Shown: one piece after another, positions 23,892-59,071 of the stretch
Layout of the letters: the number at the start of each line of letters is the position of its first letter
Position numbering within the stretch: position 1 is the first letter of the stretch
From: Gemmatimonadota bacterium
GTDB taxonomy: Bacteria; Latescibacterota; UBA2968; UBA8231
Direction of reading: 5' to 3'
DNA: 64,000 nt
Assembly (NCBI GenBank): GCA_002712305.1
Contig: PATE01000063.1
Span: forward strand, 54,984-118,983
The notes under the pieces: model-generated
What the model saw: the letters and a program-made list of their open reading frames with translations, nothing else
Told to the model about the DNA's origin: nothing
Databases searched by the model: none
Position numbers and translations under genes: made by a program

Positions 23892-26255
23892 ATGCCAACA
23901 CCGACCCCCCGAACCACAGGAGTCCGGCCCCCAGTTTTGGATCTCGTCGAGCCCATCCCCGAGCATCTCGACACCCCTCTGAGGCAAGAACTCCACCCGG
24001 GCGAACTACCCCTCGTCCTTCTGATCGCCGACATCGCTACTGACGGCAACTTTGCCGAATCGGTCCTCACCGTCACCGATGAGCGACTGCTGATCCTGCA
24101 CGCCAACGGATCCGACGTGCCCGTCGTGGAGAGTATCTCCATCGATCGTGTTTTGCGCGTGCAGACACGGAATCACGTGGGCAGTGGGTCTCTGGTGGCC
24201 GACCTCGACGAAGGAACGCGCGAATTGGTGCGTTTCTCGCAGGGCGCCTACTTCAAGTTCTCTTCTGTGCCGCAGGCGGTCGAGGCACTTCTGACCCGTC
24301 CGTCTGAAGAGATTGCCGAAGAGCCTGATGCGGAACGCGCCATACCGCCGCGCCGCATCGAACACTGTGAAACGTGCGGCCGTGCCCTCAAACAAGGCAC
24401 GAAGGTCTGCCCGAACTGCATCAAGAAACGGGAGACATTCTGGCGCCTGTTCTCTTACGTTCGACCCTACAAGAAGATCGCCCTCTTCGGCTTCGGGCTG
24501 ACCCTGACGATGACCTTCGTCGGTCTACTGCCGCCACAGTTGAACCTGATCCTCATCGACGATGTGATCACGCCCGTCATCGTCGAATACATGGAGACAG
24601 GCGCCGACGGCATTCCGAAGCAGAAGCTCACTCCCGATGATCCAAAAACGCCACCCGCCGAGCAGGCAAAGCTGCTGATCTGGGTCGTGGCAGGGCTTTT
24701 CAGCATTCACTTCGGCCGCTTGCTCATCAACGCCACCCGCTCCTATACCCTGGGCTGGCTGGGCCAGCGCATCACCTACGATCTGCAGACGGAGATCTTC
24801 AACTACCTGCAGTTCCTGTCCCTGTCGTTCTATTCCCAGCACAGTACGGGCCGCATTATGACGCGGGTGACCAGCGACACCGAGCGGATGCGGGGCTTCA
24901 TCACCACCGGCTTTCAGGACATGGTCATCGCCATCCTGACCCTGATCGGCATCGGTGCGATGCTGTTCTGGATGAACTGGGAGCTGGCCCTGCTGGCCTT
25001 GATCCCCACGCCGATCATGCTCATCGTCACCCAGATCTATCGCAAGCGCATCCACTGGACCTTCCATACGATCTGGCGCCGCATCGCTTCGTTGAACTCA
25101 CAGCTGGCCGACACGATTCCCGGCGTGAAGGTGGTCAAGGCCTTCGCGCAGGAAGATCGCGAAAGGAAGCGCTTCGATCGGCGCAACACCGAGCTGCGTG
25201 ACTCACGCATGGAGTCGGTGAAGATGAAGGCGTATTTCGTTCCCGGCATCGCCTTCATCACCGCCATGGGATCGGTGATCCTGTGGTGGTTCGGTGGCAA
25301 CCGTGTTTTGGAGAACACCCTTTCTCTCGGTCAGCTGCAGGCATTCATCGCATACATGGTCATGTTCTACGGTCCAGTGCGCGAACTGAGCGTCCTGTCC
25401 GATCAACTCGAATCGGCGGCGACGACGGCAGAGCGGGTCTTCGAGATCCTCGACACCGAACCCGACGTGACCGACCCCGTCGACGCCACCGACCCGGGCG
25501 TTCTGCAGGGACACGTCGAGTTTCGAAATGTGTCGTTTACCTACGACGGTTTCGCCCGAATTCTCGACCGCGTCACCTTCGATGTCGAACCGGGTGAAAT
25601 GATCGGCCTTGTCGGTCCTTCCGGTGCAGGCAAGTCAACTCTCGTGAATCTGATCTCCCGCTTCTTCGACGCCTCCGACGGCGACGTCTACATCGATGGT
25701 GAACCGATCACCTCATTACAGCAGGGCAAGCTTCGCTCGCAGATCGGTGTGGTCTTGCAGGAGCCGCTTCTGTTCCAGGGATCGATCGCACAGAACATCG
25801 CCTATGGTCGACCCGACGCGCCGCACGCCCGCATTATCGCCGCCGCGCGTGCTGCCAATGCCCATGACTTCATCATGAGATTCCCGGACGGCTACGATAC
25901 CGAAGTCGGTGAACGTGGCGGACGACTATCCGGCGGTGAGCGCCAACGGATCTCTATCGCCCGGGCTCTGATCTGCGAACCTATGATTCTGATTCTCGAC
26001 GAAGCGACCAGTTCAGTGGATACGGAAACCGAACACGAGATCCAGGAAGCCCTCGAGCGACTCACCGAGAATCGCACGACCTTCGCCATCGCCCATCGCT
26101 TGTCCACACTCAAGAATGCCGATCGGCTCTTCGTCATGGACAAGGGACGTATTGCCGAGGTGGGCACACACGCCGAATTGCTCGAGAAAGAAGATGGCGT
26201 CTATCGACGACTCGTCGATATGCAGACCGAGTTGGCGAAGGTGAGAGCCGTGTGA
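23892..26255 (+). CDS. ABC exporter (fused TMD-NBD, MsbA-like) with ~180-aa N-terminal PH-like domain and CxxC...CxxC zinc ribbon
   Basis: 787 aa. Residues ~190-480 form a 6-TM exporter domain. NBD Walker A GPSGAGKST, signature LSGGERQRISIARAL, Walker B ILILDEAT. N-terminal extension contains HCETCGRALKQGTKVCPNC. Confidence 0.85.
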   Translation: MPTPTPRTTGVRPPVLDLVEPIPEHLDTPLRQELHPGELPLVLLIADIATDGNFAESVLTVTDERLLILHANGSDVPVVESISIDRVLRVQTRNHVGSGSLVADLDEGTRELVRFSQGAYFKFSSVPQAVEALLTRPSEEIAEEPDAERAIPPRRIEHCETCGRALKQGTKVCPNCIKKRETFWRLFSYVRPYKKIALFGFGLTLTMTFVGLLPPQLNLILIDDVITPVIVEYMETGADGIPKQKLTPDDPKTPPAEQAKLLIWVVAGLFSIHFGRLLINATRSYTLGWLGQRITYDLQTEIFNYLQFLSLSFYSQHSTGRIMTRVTSDTERMRGFITTGFQDMVIAILTLIGIGAMLFWMNWELALLALIPTPIMLIVTQIYRKRIHWTFHTIWRRIASLNSQLADTIPGVKVVKAFAQEDRERKRFDRRNTELRDSRMESVKMKAYFVPGIAFITAMGSVILWWFGGNRVLENTLSLGQLQAFIAYMVMFYGPVRELSVLSDQLESAATTAERVFEILDTEPDVTDPVDATDPGVLQGHVEFRNVSFTYDGFARILDRVTFDVEPGEMIGLVGPSGAGKSTLVNLISRFFDASDGDVYIDGEPITSLQQGKLRSQIGVVLQEPLLFQGSIAQNIAYGRPDAPHARIIAAARAANAHDFIMRFPDGYDTEVGERGGRLSGGERQRISIARALICEPMILILDEATSSVDTETEHEIQEALERLTENRTTFAIAHRLSTLKNADRLFVMDKGRIAEVGTHAELLEKEDGVYRRLVDMQTELAKVRAV

Positions 26256-26749: not shown

Positions 26750-26780
26750 CCGTCCCCGCTGTTGACGCTAGTTCACAAGT

Positions 26781-27886
26781 TCATCCGCATCGAAGTCCGA
26801 CCGGTAGCTGCGTATAGGCCTGGCTCTGACGCATGAACTCGGCGCGGGTCTCGGTCGTCGGCTCAGCGCGCCACGCATTGTAAGCGTCGAGCATGCGATC
26901 CAGGGCATGCTCCTGGATCGCGGGCAGTGCCGCCTCGTGCGCACCGTGCTCCAGATGAAAGGCTTGTCCCCGAGATAACCGCGGAAGCAGATCGAGGTGG
27001 TGGCGAGCCATGTGATCGAGGACGCCATGGTAGGTCTCGAAATCGTTGGCGAGAGGATCGTTCGCCCCAACCATCGAACAATCCAAACGCGATCATCCGA
27101 TGGTCGGCGTTGGCGCGATAGACATCTGCCTTGGACCGATCGGATCCGCCATCCTCCGCCTTACGCTGCACGTCCGTCGGAGACATGGCCAGATGATCGG
27201 TGGTCTCTGTATAGAATTTCCCATCCACCACGCCGTGCAGCAGTCCCGCCATATAGACATTGACCTCCTCATCACCATCAGACTCGCAGTCGGTTTCGAT
27301 TCGAGACGTCAGATAGGCGTTGAGGAGGAAGAAAAACATGTTTTTCTGTTCACCGTTGTTGAGATCGACATACGTGGGACTGTCCATCGGACCATCTCCG
27401 TATCGACGGCGATAGGTGCTGCATCTTCGATAGGATAGCCATAGATCCCGCAACTGATGGCGGGGAATGCGATCTGGGCGATCCGGGCCTCGGCGGCTAT
27501 GGCTAGGCTCTGGCGATAATAACTGGCCAGTAGCCGTGCGTCGTCATCAGTGCCTGAATAGATGGGGCCGACGGTATGGATGACATGACGGGCGGGAAGG
27601 AGGTGGCCACTGGTCAGGCGAGCCGCTCCAGTGGGGCAGCCCCACCCAGGGCTCGACATTCGGCAAGCAACCCTGGCCCGGCGGCACGGTGAATGGCACC
27701 GTCCACACCACCACCGCCGAGAAGACGCGAATTGGCCGCATTCACGATCGCATCAATGTCCAGGCGGGTGATATCACCCCGCAGGATCTCTACGCGATCG
27801 GCGACGTCTCCCGGGTAGTCCCGGCGTGTCTCGATGGCACTCTGCATGCGCACTCCATCAGCGAGCGGGGCGACGGAAGGTATCAC
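26781..27886 (-). pseudogene. macro-domain (O-acetyl-ADP-ribose deacetylase, YmdB/MacroD-like) gene interrupted by frameshift(s), with a 3' region of unclear relation
   Basis: ORF 27614..27886 encodes the macro N-half ([36 protein letters not shown]). ORF 27309..27659, in the -1 frame, encodes the C-half ([25 protein letters not shown]...[12 protein letters not shown]). Comparison to YmdB (GDCPTG) implies a 1-nt loss in a GGGGC context near 27630. Two further mutually shifted ORFs follow downstream (26863..27453 and 26781..27086). Confidence 0.6.
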
Positions 27887-38851: not shown

Positions 38852-40342
38852 ATGAGAGTGGCTTTCGTTTTGATCGGTTTGACCCTGACCTGCTGTGCGA
38901 AGATTCCCGCTGTGCAATACCCAATCCTGGAAATCGAAACACCTGACCGATGGACAGCGACCGCCAACCAGTCGCCAGATCAGCAGGCGGAAACACACCA
39001 GGCCGATTCGATCGGGGTGAGCAGAGAGGCTCCCTCCACCGCGTGGTGGGCAGACCTGGGCGATTCGGTGCTGACGGCGCTGATCGTCGAAGGCCTGCGC
39101 AGCAACCACGACTTGAAAGCCGCGGCGCATCGACTTGAGATCGCCGTTGCACAAGCGCGCATCGCGGGAGCTCCCATCACACCGCAGGCGACGGCCGGTG
39201 TCGATGCCAGCCGATCGCGTCGCAACTTCATCGGGTTCCCCCTCGGTGGCGGTGCCGGTGACGGTGTCGTCGCTTCGGAGACGACCGGTCTCAACGCCAA
39301 CATCCTGATCTCCTGGGAGGTCGACCTGTGGGGGAGAATGCGTGCCGGTCACGCAGCTGCCCTGGCCGATGTCGGCGCGGCCCAGGCGGACCTAGCCGGC
39401 GCACGGGTGTCCCTGGCGGCACAGATTGGGCGACTGCTTTTCTCCGTCATCGAGGCCCAAAATCAACTCGATCTGGCGATCGCCACCGCCGCCAATCAAG
39501 ATCGTACGGCTCGTCAGATCGAGGACCGCTATGACCGCGGTCTGCGTTCGTCTCTCGATCTGCGTCTGGCGCGATCTGGCGCGGCCAGCTCTCGGGCTGC
39601 TGTCGCGGCTCGACGGAGCCAGCTTGACGCCACAAAGAGAAGTCTCGAGACCCTGCTGGGACGTTATCCGTCGGCGACACTGTCTTCAATGCCCGACCTG
39701 CCGGTGGTCGATGGTCCCGTTCCGGCAGGCATGCCAGCACAGCTCATTCAGCGCCGACCCGACCTGGCCGCCGGTGAGCGCCGGATTCGTGCCGCTCAAT
39801 TGCGAGGCAAACAGGCCCGACGATCCCTGCTGCCGAGAATCAGCTTGACCGCGTCCGGAGGCCGATCCAGTGAGTCGCTGGGGGATCTGCTCGACGGTGA
39901 CTACAGCGTCTGGAATCTTGTGGCCAATCTCTCCCAGCCCCTGCTGCAAGTAGGCCGACTGCGCGCTCAGGTTGATCTGACGGCGGCCGCCGAGGAAGCG
40001 GCCCTGGCAGAGTATGCGGCGATCGCGCTGCGCGCCTACGCACAGGTTGAGGGGGCCTTGGAGGCCGAACTGTCCCTGGCAGAGCAAGAGCAGGCCATGC
40101 GAGTGGCTGCATCGGAGGCTCGAGCCGCAGAGAGAGTCGCCCAGGACCGATACGCACGTGGGCTCATCAACTACATCGCTCTGATGGAATCCCAACAGCG
40201 GGCTTTCTCTGCCCAAAGCCAACTGCTCAGCGTTCGTAGGTCACGTCTCGAAGCGCGGGTTGATTTGTACGTCGCTCTGGGGGGAGGGTTTTCCCTTTCC
40301 CCCTCATCCTCAGCACCTGACACCCAAGAGACCGGTACATGA
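38852..40342 (+). CDS. outer-membrane efflux protein (TolC/NodT family OMF, lipoprotein)
   Basis: Trimmed to the ATG at 38852 (MRVAFVLIGLTLTCC). Two OEP repeat halves, coiled-coil Ala/Leu/Arg-rich. Confidence 0.8.
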   Translation: MRVAFVLIGLTLTCCAKIPAVQYPILEIETPDRWTATANQSPDQQAETHQADSIGVSREAPSTAWWADLGDSVLTALIVEGLRSNHDLKAAAHRLEIAVAQARIAGAPITPQATAGVDASRSRRNFIGFPLGGGAGDGVVASETTGLNANILISWEVDLWGRMRAGHAAALADVGAAQADLAGARVSLAAQIGRLLFSVIEAQNQLDLAIATAANQDRTARQIEDRYDRGLRSSLDLRLARSGAASSRAAVAARRSQLDATKRSLETLLGRYPSATLSSMPDLPVVDGPVPAGMPAQLIQRRPDLAAGERRIRAAQLRGKQARRSLLPRISLTASGGRSSESLGDLLDGDYSVWNLVANLSQPLLQVGRLRAQVDLTAAAEEAALAEYAAIALRAYAQVEGALEAELSLAEQEQAMRVAASEARAAERVAQDRYARGLINYIALMESQQRAFSAQSQLLSVRRSRLEARVDLYVALGGGFSLSPSSSAPDTQETGT

Positions 40343-58112: not shown

Positions 58113-59071
58113 ACCTCCCGTTCGGAGGTGACCTTGAGTTCCAATTTCTTGATCCGGGTCAGGACATCTTCCATCAGGGCGCGGTTGGTCGCGATTAAAT
58201 CGGCGACGACGCCCGTGAGGAACATCTGAAAGCCGGCCAGCAACAGAACCGCCGCCAAGATCACTGACTGAATGTGTAGATCGCCTTCATCGGTGAGCAG
58301 GAGGTAGTAGAGAAACCGGATACCAAGGGCAACACCCGCCGCGAAGGTGATTGCGCCGCAGGCCGAAAAGATCTTCAACGCCTTGTAGCGGGCATAGGTG
58401 CGCAGGGAAATCGAACCCGATTTGAGCACGAACTCCCCCACATTCGAAAACAGACGTGATTCGCGTGCCTTCGGATTGGTTCGGATCGGTACCGCCACCA
58501 CCGCCCAGTGGTCCTGGCCCGCCTGAACCACGTGTTCGGCCGTGTGGTCGAAGTCGGTGAACATGGAGATCTTCAGAGCCGTCTCTCGCGTATAGGCACG
58601 AAAGCCTGAGGCTACATCGGGGATCTGCAGCCCGCCCAGCCGACTGATCACACGACTACCATAGGTCTGTAGCGCTCGTTTCAACAACGAGAAGTGACCG
58701 ATCTCGCCGGTGCGGCGATCACCGATCACAAGGTCGGCCCGCTGCTCCAGAATCGGTTGAACGAGCGTTTCTACATCGCCCCCGAAGTACTGGTTGTCGC
58801 CATCAGTGTTGATAATGATGTCAGCACCCAGGCGCAGGGCAGTGTCGAAGCCAGCCTTGAAGGCATGGCCCAGGCCGCGATTCTGCGCGAAGCGTACGAT
58901 GTGATCGGCGCCATTCTCGCGGGCGACTTCGGACGTACGGTCTGTCGATCCGTCGTCGATGATGAGGATCTCCACCGCATCGATGCCTTCGATCTGGCGA
59001 GGGATGTCCGCCATCGTGGCGCCAAGGGTCTCCTCTTCATTGAGACAGGGGATCTGCACGATCAGTTTCAT
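58109..59071 (-). CDS. family-2 glycosyltransferase, polyprenyl-phosphate sugar transferase type (DPM1/ArnC-like)
   Basis: VQIPCLNEE...ILIIDDGSTDRT...TDGDNQ; C-terminal TM helices as in GtrB/ArnC. Confidence 0.8.
   Translation of the reverse strand: MKLIVQIPCLNEEETLGATMADIPRQIEGIDAVEILIIDDGSTDRTSEVARENGADHIVRFAQNRGLGHAFKAGFDTALRLGADIIINTDGDNQYFGGDVETLVQPILEQRADLVIGDRRTGEIGHFSLLKRALQTYGSRVISRLGGLQIPDVASGFRAYTRETALKISMFTDFDHTAEHVVQAGQDHWAVVAVPIRTNPKARESRLFSNVGEFVLKSGSISLRTYARYKALKIFSACGAITFAAGVALGIRFLYYLLLTDEGDLHIQSVILAAVLLLAGFQMFLTGVVADLIATNRALMEDVLTRIKKLELKVTSEREV

What the first reader, a model, noticed from the sequence alone, without database searches (positions are those of the whole stretch)
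26781..27886. Macro-domain gene disrupted by frameshift(s), followed by a second frame-split ORF
The N-half and C-half of a canonical macro domain lie in two overlapping ORFs one base out of frame (27614..27886 and 27309..27659). Alignment to YmdB (..GG-D-CPTG..) implies a single-nucleotide loss in a GGGGC context near 27630.

Immediately downstream, two further ORFs (26863..27453 and 26781..27086) are also mutually frame-shifted and overlap the macro 3' end. This may be one decaying multi-domain gene or two broken genes. All other ~50 genes in the window are intact, which argues for genuine pseudogenisation rather than general sequence error.

ADP-ribose-processing macro proteins often belong to toxin-antitoxin or anti-defence modules, so loss of this one may be biologically meaningful.
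Basis: seen in the sequence. Interest (0 to 1): 0.55.

Follow-up and report, generated by a model that had tools for sequence, protein, structure and literature searches.

The report
Macro-domain and neighbour gene pseudogenes
Two neighbouring genes of an uncultured marine Latescibacterota bacterium, an ADP-ribose-processing macro-domain enzyme and a conserved protein of unknown function, are truly broken by small insertions and deletions; this is an ordinary case of gene loss, unusually well documented because many differently broken versions coexist in ocean metagenomes.

Summary
On the minus strand, 26768..27847 holds two separate broken genes, not one multi-domain gene.

**Gene 1: a MacroD/YmdB-type macro domain (O-acetyl-ADP-ribose deacetylase).**
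- The split is a 2-bp gain (GG to GGGG, 27640-27643), not a 1-nt loss.
- A roughly 200-bp deletion also removed its last ~27 codons and the spacer. The junction (~27400|27399) lies 12 nt upstream of the next gene's ATG.

**Gene 2 ("X"): a conserved ~249-aa helical protein with no Pfam or NCBIfam family.**
- A 131-bp deletion between imperfect direct repeats (junction 27054|27053) breaks it.
- A 1-bp insertion (CC at 26803-26804) replaces its last residues.

**This is not sequencing error.**
- Five independent metagenome contigs carry the window's 77-aa macro product and its GG insertion. The three long enough to span X also carry the 131-bp deletion.
- Sister haplotypes (98.7-99.5% identical) carry different lesions: a 67-bp deletion, +T, a lost start codon, a stop codon, and a larger X deletion.
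- Rare contigs keep X fully intact.

**Relatives.** Related Latescibacterota genomes show GT2, macro (176 aa), X (249 aa) intact. Others have lost the macro gene entirely.

**No support for a toxin-antitoxin or defence role.** There are no PADLOC hits, no DarT, and no DarG-type lysine.

Verdict: genuine, ordinary pseudogenisation.

The parts
27614..27847 (-). Macro gene, 5' fragment. Runs from ATG 27847 to a premature stop at 27616-27614. The 77-aa product ends ..[15 protein letters not shown].
   Evidence: Pfam Macro 1-33 and NF001664 3-52. This exact 77-aa product is called in 5 independent assemblies.
27640..27643 (-). G4 run holding the 2-bp insertion that shifts the macro frame. In-frame alleles read GGTGGCTGC (= ..LGGCPTG..); the window reads GGTGGGGCTGC.
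   Evidence: Alignments to L001-L006, L034 and L041. Diagnostic k-mers in L008-L012.
27399..27639 (-). Macro gene, central part in the shifted frame (..[11 protein letters not shown]...[17 protein letters not shown]). Homology ends at the Thr149 codon, 27401-27399.
   Evidence: Pfam Macro 39-118 and NF001664 60-142/173. Alignment A1 shows the tail is unrelated to the macro C-terminus.
27309..27398 (-). Read-through tail of the truncated macro ORF ([29 protein letters not shown]). It is out of frame over the ribosome-binding site and first 26 codons of X. The deletion junction is at ~27400|27399, and the retained native X upstream sequence is GGAGATGGTCCG.
   Evidence: The 12 nt before the X ATG match the macro-less relative L007 (GGAGATGGTTTG), and the sequence upstream of that does not. 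The tail has pLDDT below 50 in the AF2 model.
27054..27387 (-). Gene X, 5' part (ATG 27387; [14 protein letters not shown]...FDGWGERSS). The N-terminus is intact.
   Evidence: X-family profile positions 1-115. 81-100% identical to P0001, P0327 and P0002.
27048..27059 (-). Junction of the 131-bp deletion in X (27054|27053). The flanks in the undeleted allele are imperfect direct repeats, CCCGCCAACG and CTCGCCAACG. Because 131 = 3x43+2, the deletion shifts the frame.
   Evidence: Alignment to L006 and L041, which keep the 131 bp.
26768..27053 (-). Gene X, 3' part (..LANDFETYHGVLDHM...AYTQL). It runs to the native stop TAG at 26770-26768. In the window it is read in two further frames.
   Evidence: X profile positions 155-239. 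The 97-aa product of this piece is on record in 110 blocks of the collection.
26803..26804 (-). 1-bp insertion (CTACCGG where the intact allele has CTACGG). It replaces the native C-terminus ..QLRSDFDADELVN* with ..QLPVGLRCG* (stop 26783-26781).
   Evidence: L041 and P0327 carry the intact 249-aa allele. Alignment with L007.

Best explanation
The stretch 26768..27847 (minus strand) holds the decaying remains of two adjacent, co-oriented genes of a marine Candidatus Latescibacterota population.

**Ancestral state (shown in relatives).** The order is Map<- GT2-> macro (174-176 aa, MacroD/YmdB-type O-acetyl-ADP-ribose deacetylase)-> X (249 aa, uncharacterised helical protein)-> <-DUF1854 <-ABC exporter.

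**Step 1. Shown as present in every allele of this species examined; its size and its being first are inferred.**
- A deletion of about 200 bp removed macro codons ~150-176, the stop codon and the spacer, up to 12 nt before the X start codon.
- The macro ORF now runs out of frame into X and ends with 29 unrelated residues.
- This removes the last conserved hydrophobic strand (V.FVLFS) and the terminal helix. That most likely inactivates the enzyme (inferred).

**Step 2 (shown, polymorphic).** With selection relaxed, independent small lesions accumulated in different haplotypes.
- The window's haplotype has +GG in macro (product cut to 77 aa), a 131-bp repeat-mediated deletion in X, and +1 bp near the X 3' end.
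- Other haplotypes have a 67-bp deletion, +T, a lost start codon, a nonsense codon, or a larger X deletion.
- A few contigs still carry an intact X.

Neither gene can give a full-length product in the window. The short deletions sit between short direct repeats or microhomologies, which fits replication slippage (inferred).
For: **Macro identity.**. The repaired allele P0051 scores 210.8 bits on NF001664 (cutoff 200) but matches only profile positions 3-142 of 173. The intact syntenic ortholog P0096 matches 3-171.

**X family.** One search found 50 homologs, mostly 245-268 aa. One search found 349 representative clusters.

**Intact syntenic reference.** L013/L014. Across species representatives, macro lies directly upstream of X in 6 species, is absent in 5, and is reduced to an N-terminal remnant in L030.

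**The window allele is reproduced.**
- Five independent contigs (ERZ909107/ERR594302, ERZ8578505, DRR683879, SRR28422191, ERZ23487524) carry its 77-aa macro product and the GG insertion.
- The three long ones also carry the 131-bp deletion. They are gap-free against the window at 99.83-99.92% identity over 5.4-5.8 kb.

**Independent lesions in sister haplotypes.**
- L001-L005: 67-bp deletion.
- L034: ATG to ATA, Q202* and a larger X deletion.
- L041: +T in macro with X intact.
- Further variant products P0340, P0341, P0346, P0347 and P0352.

**Relaxed constraint.**
- Macro has 10 nonsynonymous against 6 synonymous polymorphic codons. These include G50D in the invariant GGGGVDG motif. Separately, allele products show changes at the near-invariant P94.
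- Pairwise omega is about 0.65, against about 0.23 for five flanking genes.

**Junction.**
Against: - Several haplotypes keep an uninterrupted 178-aa macro ORF with all catalytic motifs. NCBI annotates it as O-acetyl-ADP-ribose deacetylase. Loss of function from the 3' truncation alone is therefore inferred, not shown.
- SNP counts are small (about 16 polymorphic codons), so the omega estimates are rough.
- Haplotypes come from metagenome assemblies. The phase of lesions on short contigs and the true allele frequencies are uncertain.
- Whether another macro or X paralog elsewhere in the genome compensates could not be checked. None is found in the 64-kb window.
Confidence: 0.9

Rival explanations
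1. The truncated 178-aa macro protein with its new tail is still functional in this species. On this view the window simply carries a recent, segregating loss-of-function allele (+GG). This would be polymorphic gene loss rather than an old, species-wide pseudogene.
For: - An uninterrupted 178-aa ORF with intact N..GGVD..GIYG motifs is present in L006 and several NCBI MAGs.
- It still passes the NF001664 cutoff.
- The macro core remains 70-78% identical to intact homologs.
Against: - At least five different secondary knock-outs of macro are seen in a population that is 98.7-99.9% identical over this locus.
- Nonsynonymous changes hit invariant or near-invariant residues.
- The missing segment contains the conserved V.FVLFS strand.
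- The tail is predicted disordered.
- Related species have lost the gene completely.
Confidence: 0.15
2. The frameshifts are sequencing or assembly errors, and the real genome has intact genes.
For: The +GG and +C changes sit in short homopolymer runs (sequence).
Against: - The same +GG is found in five independent assemblies from different runs and assemblers. The 131-bp deletion is found in the three of them that span it.
- The 97-aa product of the deleted allele is on record in 110 blocks.
- A 131-bp deletion and a ~200-bp truncation are not homopolymer errors.
- The runs are only 2-4 bases long.
Confidence: 0.02
3. The macro gene is expressed as a full protein by programmed ribosomal frameshifting or transcriptional slippage at the GGGG run.
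For: The two halves overlap by 46 nt around a G4 run.
Against: - Sister alleles are in frame at this site, so the shift is not conserved.
- No slippery heptamer or long homopolymer is present.
- Even if decoded, the product would lack the macro C-terminus.
- No Rfam frameshift element is found.
Confidence: 0.02
4. Macro plus X formed a toxin-antitoxin or anti-defence module (DarTG-like), and its loss reflects a change in phage pressure.
For: - Macro and X are adjacent and co-oriented in 6 Latescibacterota species.
- Both decay in the window.
Against: - No PADLOC hit for either protein.
- X has no DarT/DUF4433 or any other family match.
- The macro is MacroD-type with no Lys in residues 1-149 (sequence; PMC8120803).
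- X persists without macro in 5 syntenic species and in unrelated contexts next to RNase Y-like genes.
- The pair sits in a conserved housekeeping block (Map, GT2, DnaE), not in a defence island.
Confidence: 0.03

Closest known systems
MacroD-like bacterial macrodomains (E. coli YmdB, Oceanobacillus iheyensis MacroD; NCBIfam NF001664 O-acetyl-ADP-ribose deacetylase)
   Same: - The conceptual translation carries the family motifs NAAN...GGGGVDG...GIYG.
- It is 70-78% identical to ~174-aa homologs.
- The repaired allele scores above the NF001664 cutoff.
   Different: - The window copy is split by +2 bp.
- It lacks profile positions 143-173, the last strand and helix, which are replaced by 29 unrelated residues.
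- It is a pseudogene, not a working member.
DarG antitoxin macrodomain of DarT/DarG (TARG1-like)
   Same: Both contain a macro fold domain.
   Different: - There is no TK/catalytic-Lys motif, and no Lys at all in residues 1-149.
- There is no DarT neighbour.
- There is no PADLOC match.
- The locus is not a toxin-antitoxin context.
Uncharacterised ~249-aa helical protein family (e.g. P0002, P0018 from Ca. Latescibacteria, P0020 from Parcubacteria). It has no Pfam or NCBIfam model.
   Same: - The window pieces match profile positions 1-115 and 155-239.
- They sit in the family's usual slot between GT2/macro and DUF1854.
   Different: - The window copy has an internal 131-bp deletion and a C-terminal frameshift.
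- Intact alleles (P0327, P0322) differ from it by these lesions and a few substitutions.
Ordinary bacterial pseudogenes formed by slippage or microhomology deletions
   Same: - The lesions are small indels in short runs.
- The deletions are flanked by 6-10-bp direct repeats: TCGCGT for the 67-bp deletion and C[C/T]CGCCAACG for the 131-bp deletion.
   Different: Nothing in kind. The unusual feature is only that many alternative decay states of one locus are visible side by side in metagenomes.

Membership tests
MacroD/YmdB-type macrodomain (NF001664, PF01661) | Whole-protein profile score above the curated cutoff (NF001664, 200 bits) | tested here: not met
   The window's two ORFs score 85.5 and 119.8 bits. 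Only the conceptually repaired allele P0051 reaches 210.8 bits.
MacroD/YmdB-type macrodomain (NF001664, PF01661) | Catalytic and binding motifs N-x2-N, GGVD and G[VI]YG (PMC8120803, Table 1) | tested here: met
   [16 protein letters not shown] and CGIYGYP are present in the conceptual translation and fall in invariant columns of A1 and A3.
MacroD/YmdB-type macrodomain (NF001664, PF01661) | Complete fold including the C-terminal strand and helix (profile positions 143-173; conserved V.FVLFS) | tested here: not met
   Homology stops at ..IAVDT in all alleles of this species. The tail has pLDDT below 50.
MacroD/YmdB-type macrodomain (NF001664, PF01661) | O-acetyl-ADP-ribose deacetylase / mono-ADP-ribosylhydrolase activity | not testable with these tools
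   This needs a biochemical assay.
DarT/DarG toxin-antitoxin | TARG1-like macro domain with a catalytic Lys (TK motif) | tested here: not met
   There is no Lys in macro residues 1-149 (sequence). Motif taken from PMC8120803. No PADLOC DarG hit.
DarT/DarG toxin-antitoxin | Adjacent DarT (DUF4433) ADP-ribosyltransferase | tested here: not met
   The neighbour X has no Pfam, NCBIfam or PADLOC match. The other neighbours are GT2 and DUF1854.
Uncharacterised 249-aa 'X' family | Colinear full-length match (~249 aa) to the family profile | tested here: not met
   Window pieces cover profile positions 1-115 and 155-239 in different frames, and the C-terminal ~10 residues are frameshifted.
Uncharacterised 249-aa 'X' family | Syntenic position GT2-(macro)-X-DUF1854-ABC in Latescibacterota | tested here: met

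The most novel reading that the evidence does not exclude
Macro and X may be functionally coupled, with X a partner or substrate-handling factor of ADP-ribose metabolism in Latescibacterota. On this reading the first deletion disabled both at once by removing the macro C-terminus and placing out-of-frame translation over X's start, so both then decayed together. The many coexisting decay states would then be a natural record of how a two-gene module is lost in an uncultured marine lineage, and a first functional hint for an unannotated protein family.
Probability: 0.1. Interest if true: 0.4.

Novelty: new member of a known kind. Interest (0 to 1): 0.2.

Why it matters
- It shows that the frame breaks are biological. 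The window's sequence can be trusted here, and these ORF fragments should be annotated as two pseudogenes.
- Current gene calls in public assemblies get this wrong. They include a 77-aa 'Macro' protein, a 97-aa hypothetical, a spurious antisense 81-aa ORF, and a 178-aa protein named O-acetyl-ADP-ribose deacetylase although its C-terminus is not macro-derived.
- Biologically it is a small, clean example of ongoing gene loss in a widespread marine Latescibacterota population. One lesion is present in every allele examined, and at least ten independent secondary lesions segregate.
- It shows that the MacroD-type enzyme is dispensable in this clade.
- It does not reveal a new mechanism or system.

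Tried and rejected
- **Family scans of X.** Pfam, NCBIfam and PADLOC scans of X and of 40 diverse family members found no family.
- **PDB sequence search.** A profile search of PDB sequences with the X alignment found nothing at E<=1.
- **Exact look-ups.** Look-ups of the 787-aa ABC ORF and the 116-aa macro C-fragment found nothing, probably because gene callers chose different starts or made no call.
- **Rfam.** A scan of the whole window found nothing.
- **One multi-domain gene.** Rejected because intact relatives have two genes with a spacer, and X occurs alone elsewhere.
- **Identity of the inserted base near the X 3' end.** Alignment with the distant L007 suggested an extra A. The within-species intact allele L041 shows it is an extra C in CC.
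- **JGI metagenome scan for the frameshift site.** This gave only 3 contigs, all in frame there. It confirms the in-frame alleles but says little about frequency.

Full report
**1. What is in the sequence**

On the minus strand, ORFs 27614..27886 and 27309..27659 carry the two parts of one macro domain.
- Pfam PF01661 matches positions 1-33 (E 7e-12) and 39-118 (E 4e-26).
- NCBIfam NF001664 (O-acetyl-ADP-ribose deacetylase) matches positions 3-52 and 60-142 of 173.
- The likely start is ATG 27847.
- Profile positions 143-173 are missing in every frame.

Downstream, ORFs 26863..27453 and 26781..27086 have no Pfam or NCBIfam match.

**2. The downstream ORFs are one separate gene, 'X'**

- A conceptual join of the two pieces found 50 homologs. 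The complete ones are 245-268 aa and none has a Pfam domain. Sources name them from Candidatus Latescibacterota and Patescibacteria MAGs.
- The closest homolog, P0001 (245 aa), begins MDSPTYVDL exactly as the window does at ATG 27387. It contains 43 extra residues in the middle.
- DNA alignment with its contig L006 shows that the window lacks 131 bp between the imperfect direct repeats CCCGCCAACG and CTCGCCAACG. The junction is at 27054|27053.
- Because 131 = 3x43+2, the frame changes at the junction.
- A family profile matches the window at positions 1-115 and 155-239.
- A third lesion lies near the 3' end. The window reads CTACCGG where the intact within-species allele (L041, product P0327, 249 aa) reads CTACGG. 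The window product therefore ends ..QLPVGLRCG* instead of ..QLRSDFDADELVN*.

**3. The macro lesions**

- Contigs L001-L006, L034 and L041 read GGTGGCTGC (..ALGGCPTG.., in frame) where the window reads GGTGGGGCTGC.
- The lesion is therefore a 2-bp gain in a G run (27640-27643).
- In every allele of this species examined, macro homology stops at ..IAVDT (codon 27401-27399). It is followed by [11 protein letters not shown]...STPI*, which is unrelated to the conserved C-terminus (..DTT..FL......V.FVLFS....Y) of about 40 homologs.
- The 12 nt before the X start codon (GGAGATGGTCCG) match the same position in the macro-less relative L007 (GGAGATGGTTTG). The sequence upstream of that does not match.
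- So a deletion joined macro codon ~149 to the ribosome-binding site of X. From the intact relative (macro 176 aa plus a 126-bp spacer) its size is inferred to be about 200 bp.

**4. Not an artefact**

- The exact 77-aa product of the window's 5' macro fragment is called on five contigs from five different samples and assemblers. All five carry the +GG k-mer.
- The three that span X carry the 131-bp deletion junction. They align to the window without gaps at 99.83-99.92% identity over 5.4-5.8 kb.
- The 97-aa product of the deleted X allele is on record in 110 blocks of the collection. The flanking DUF1854 protein is in 133.

**5. Many independent decay states in one population**

These contigs are 98.7-99.5% identical to the window over this locus.
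- L001-L005, and L039 and L040 from JGI data, are in frame at the GG site. They have a 67-bp deletion (window 27725..27791, flanked by the microhomology TCGCGT) plus a 3-bp insertion, and the same 131-bp deletion in X.
- L006 has an uninterrupted 178-aa macro ORF. Its X is 245 aa and carries only the +1 lesion.
- L034 (GCA_036344035.1) has the macro start changed from ATG to ATA, a larger X deletion (DHLA|NDFETY) and Q202*.
- L041 has X fully intact, but its macro carries an extra T near 27562 in addition to the 3' truncation.
- Cluster members show still more variants: P0340, P0341, P0346, P0347, P0352 and P0317.

Polymorphism in macro comprises 10 nonsynonymous and 6 synonymous codons, including G50D in the invariant GGGGVDG motif. 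Allele products also show changes at the near-invariant Pro94. Pairwise omega is about 0.65, against about 0.23 summed over five flanking genes. The numbers are small, but they fit relaxed selection.

**6. Comparative context**

The locus lies in a block conserved across Latescibacterota: DnaE, AhpC, a small ORF, Map<-, GT2->, (macro->), X->, <-DUF1854, <-ABC.
- Macro sits directly upstream of X in six species representatives (L013/16, L022, L023, L026, L028, L029).
- It is absent, with GT2 directly followed by X, in five (L007/L015, L017, L018, L019, L024).
- It is reduced to a ~45-residue N-terminal remnant in L030.
- X is present in all of these. It also occurs in unrelated contexts, next to RNase Y-like genes, without macro.

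Macro has thus been lost repeatedly in this clade, and the window shows such a loss in progress. Decay of X is specific to the window's species.

**7. What the genes are**

*Macro.*
- It carries the MacroD-like motifs N..N, GGVD and G[IV]YG, listed for YmdB and OiMacroD in PMC8120803.
- The repaired allele passes the NF001664 cutoff at 210.8 bits against 200.
- It has no lysine in residues 1-149, so it is not of the DarG/TARG1 type. It has no PADLOC match.
- An AlphaFold model of the 178-aa allele gives pLDDT below 50 for residues 153-178.

*X.*
- It is an all-helical protein (AF2 pLDDT 72).
- It has no match among PDB sequences.
- An exhaustive profile search finds 349 representative clusters.
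- 40 diverse members have no Pfam family.
- Its function remains unknown.

**8. Mechanism and verdict**

| Status | Points |
|---|---|
| Shown | Two ancestral genes; the positions and nature of four lesions in the window; reproducibility of the window's allele; independent lesions in sister haplotypes; repeated macro loss in relatives |
| Inferred | The 3' deletion came first and inactivated the macro enzyme by removing a core strand and helix; it may also have disturbed X expression, because out-of-frame translation now runs over X's start; the later lesions are neutral; the deletions arose by slippage between short repeats |

The toxin-antitoxin or defence idea has no support. This is genuine but ordinary pseudogenisation. 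It is useful mainly for annotation and as a tidy example of population-level gene decay. Interest is low (0.2).

Noticed in passing
L033 (ERZ23487462 scaffold_370862, 601 bp; product P0053): An intact 168-aa macro gene whose central ~320 bp is about 99% identical to window ~27430-27750. Both flanks, including a proper macro C-terminus, are strongly diverged. It is either a chimeric short-contig assembly or recombination with a macro gene of another lineage.
   Followed up: partly
L030 2512-2718 (JAPYQE010000128.1, Ca. Latescibacterota PW2.concoct.70_sub): An independent macro remnant upstream of X in another species. Only ~45 N-terminal residues are recognisable (..[25 protein letters not shown]), followed by stops. 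A 269-aa ORF that is absent from this position in the other loci lies between GT2 and the remnant; I did not identify it.
   Followed up: partly
window 27193-27438 (+), within ORF 27046..27438 (+): Public gene calls place an 81-aa ORF here, antisense to the 5' part of X (for example L001 6942-7187). It has no family match and looks like a spurious call filling the space left by the pseudogenes.
   Followed up: partly
window 58113-58693: The largest stretch (581 bp) not covered by a long ORF in a crude tiling of the window. Rfam finds nothing there at gathering thresholds.
   Followed up: no
window 38983-39348 (-): A weak hit (E 0.0015, 14 bits) of the macro profile (positions 117-142) inside another reading frame. 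It is most likely chance.
   Followed up: no
L015 and L020 (both from MAG SI074_bin69, JABJJN01): One MAG carries two X-family genes. One is in the conserved GT2-X-DUF1854 slot. The second, a 55%-identical paralog, is in an unrelated context. So paralogs of X exist in this phylum.
   Followed up: no
window 23892-26255 (+) and NCBI annotations: The ABC exporter upstream is called as 772 aa in most assemblies and 787 aa in one (L003), and the longest window ORF is 787 aa. NCBI names the 178-aa truncated macro allele 'O-acetyl-ADP-ribose deacetylase' in several MAGs, without flagging the non-homologous C-terminus.
   Followed up: no
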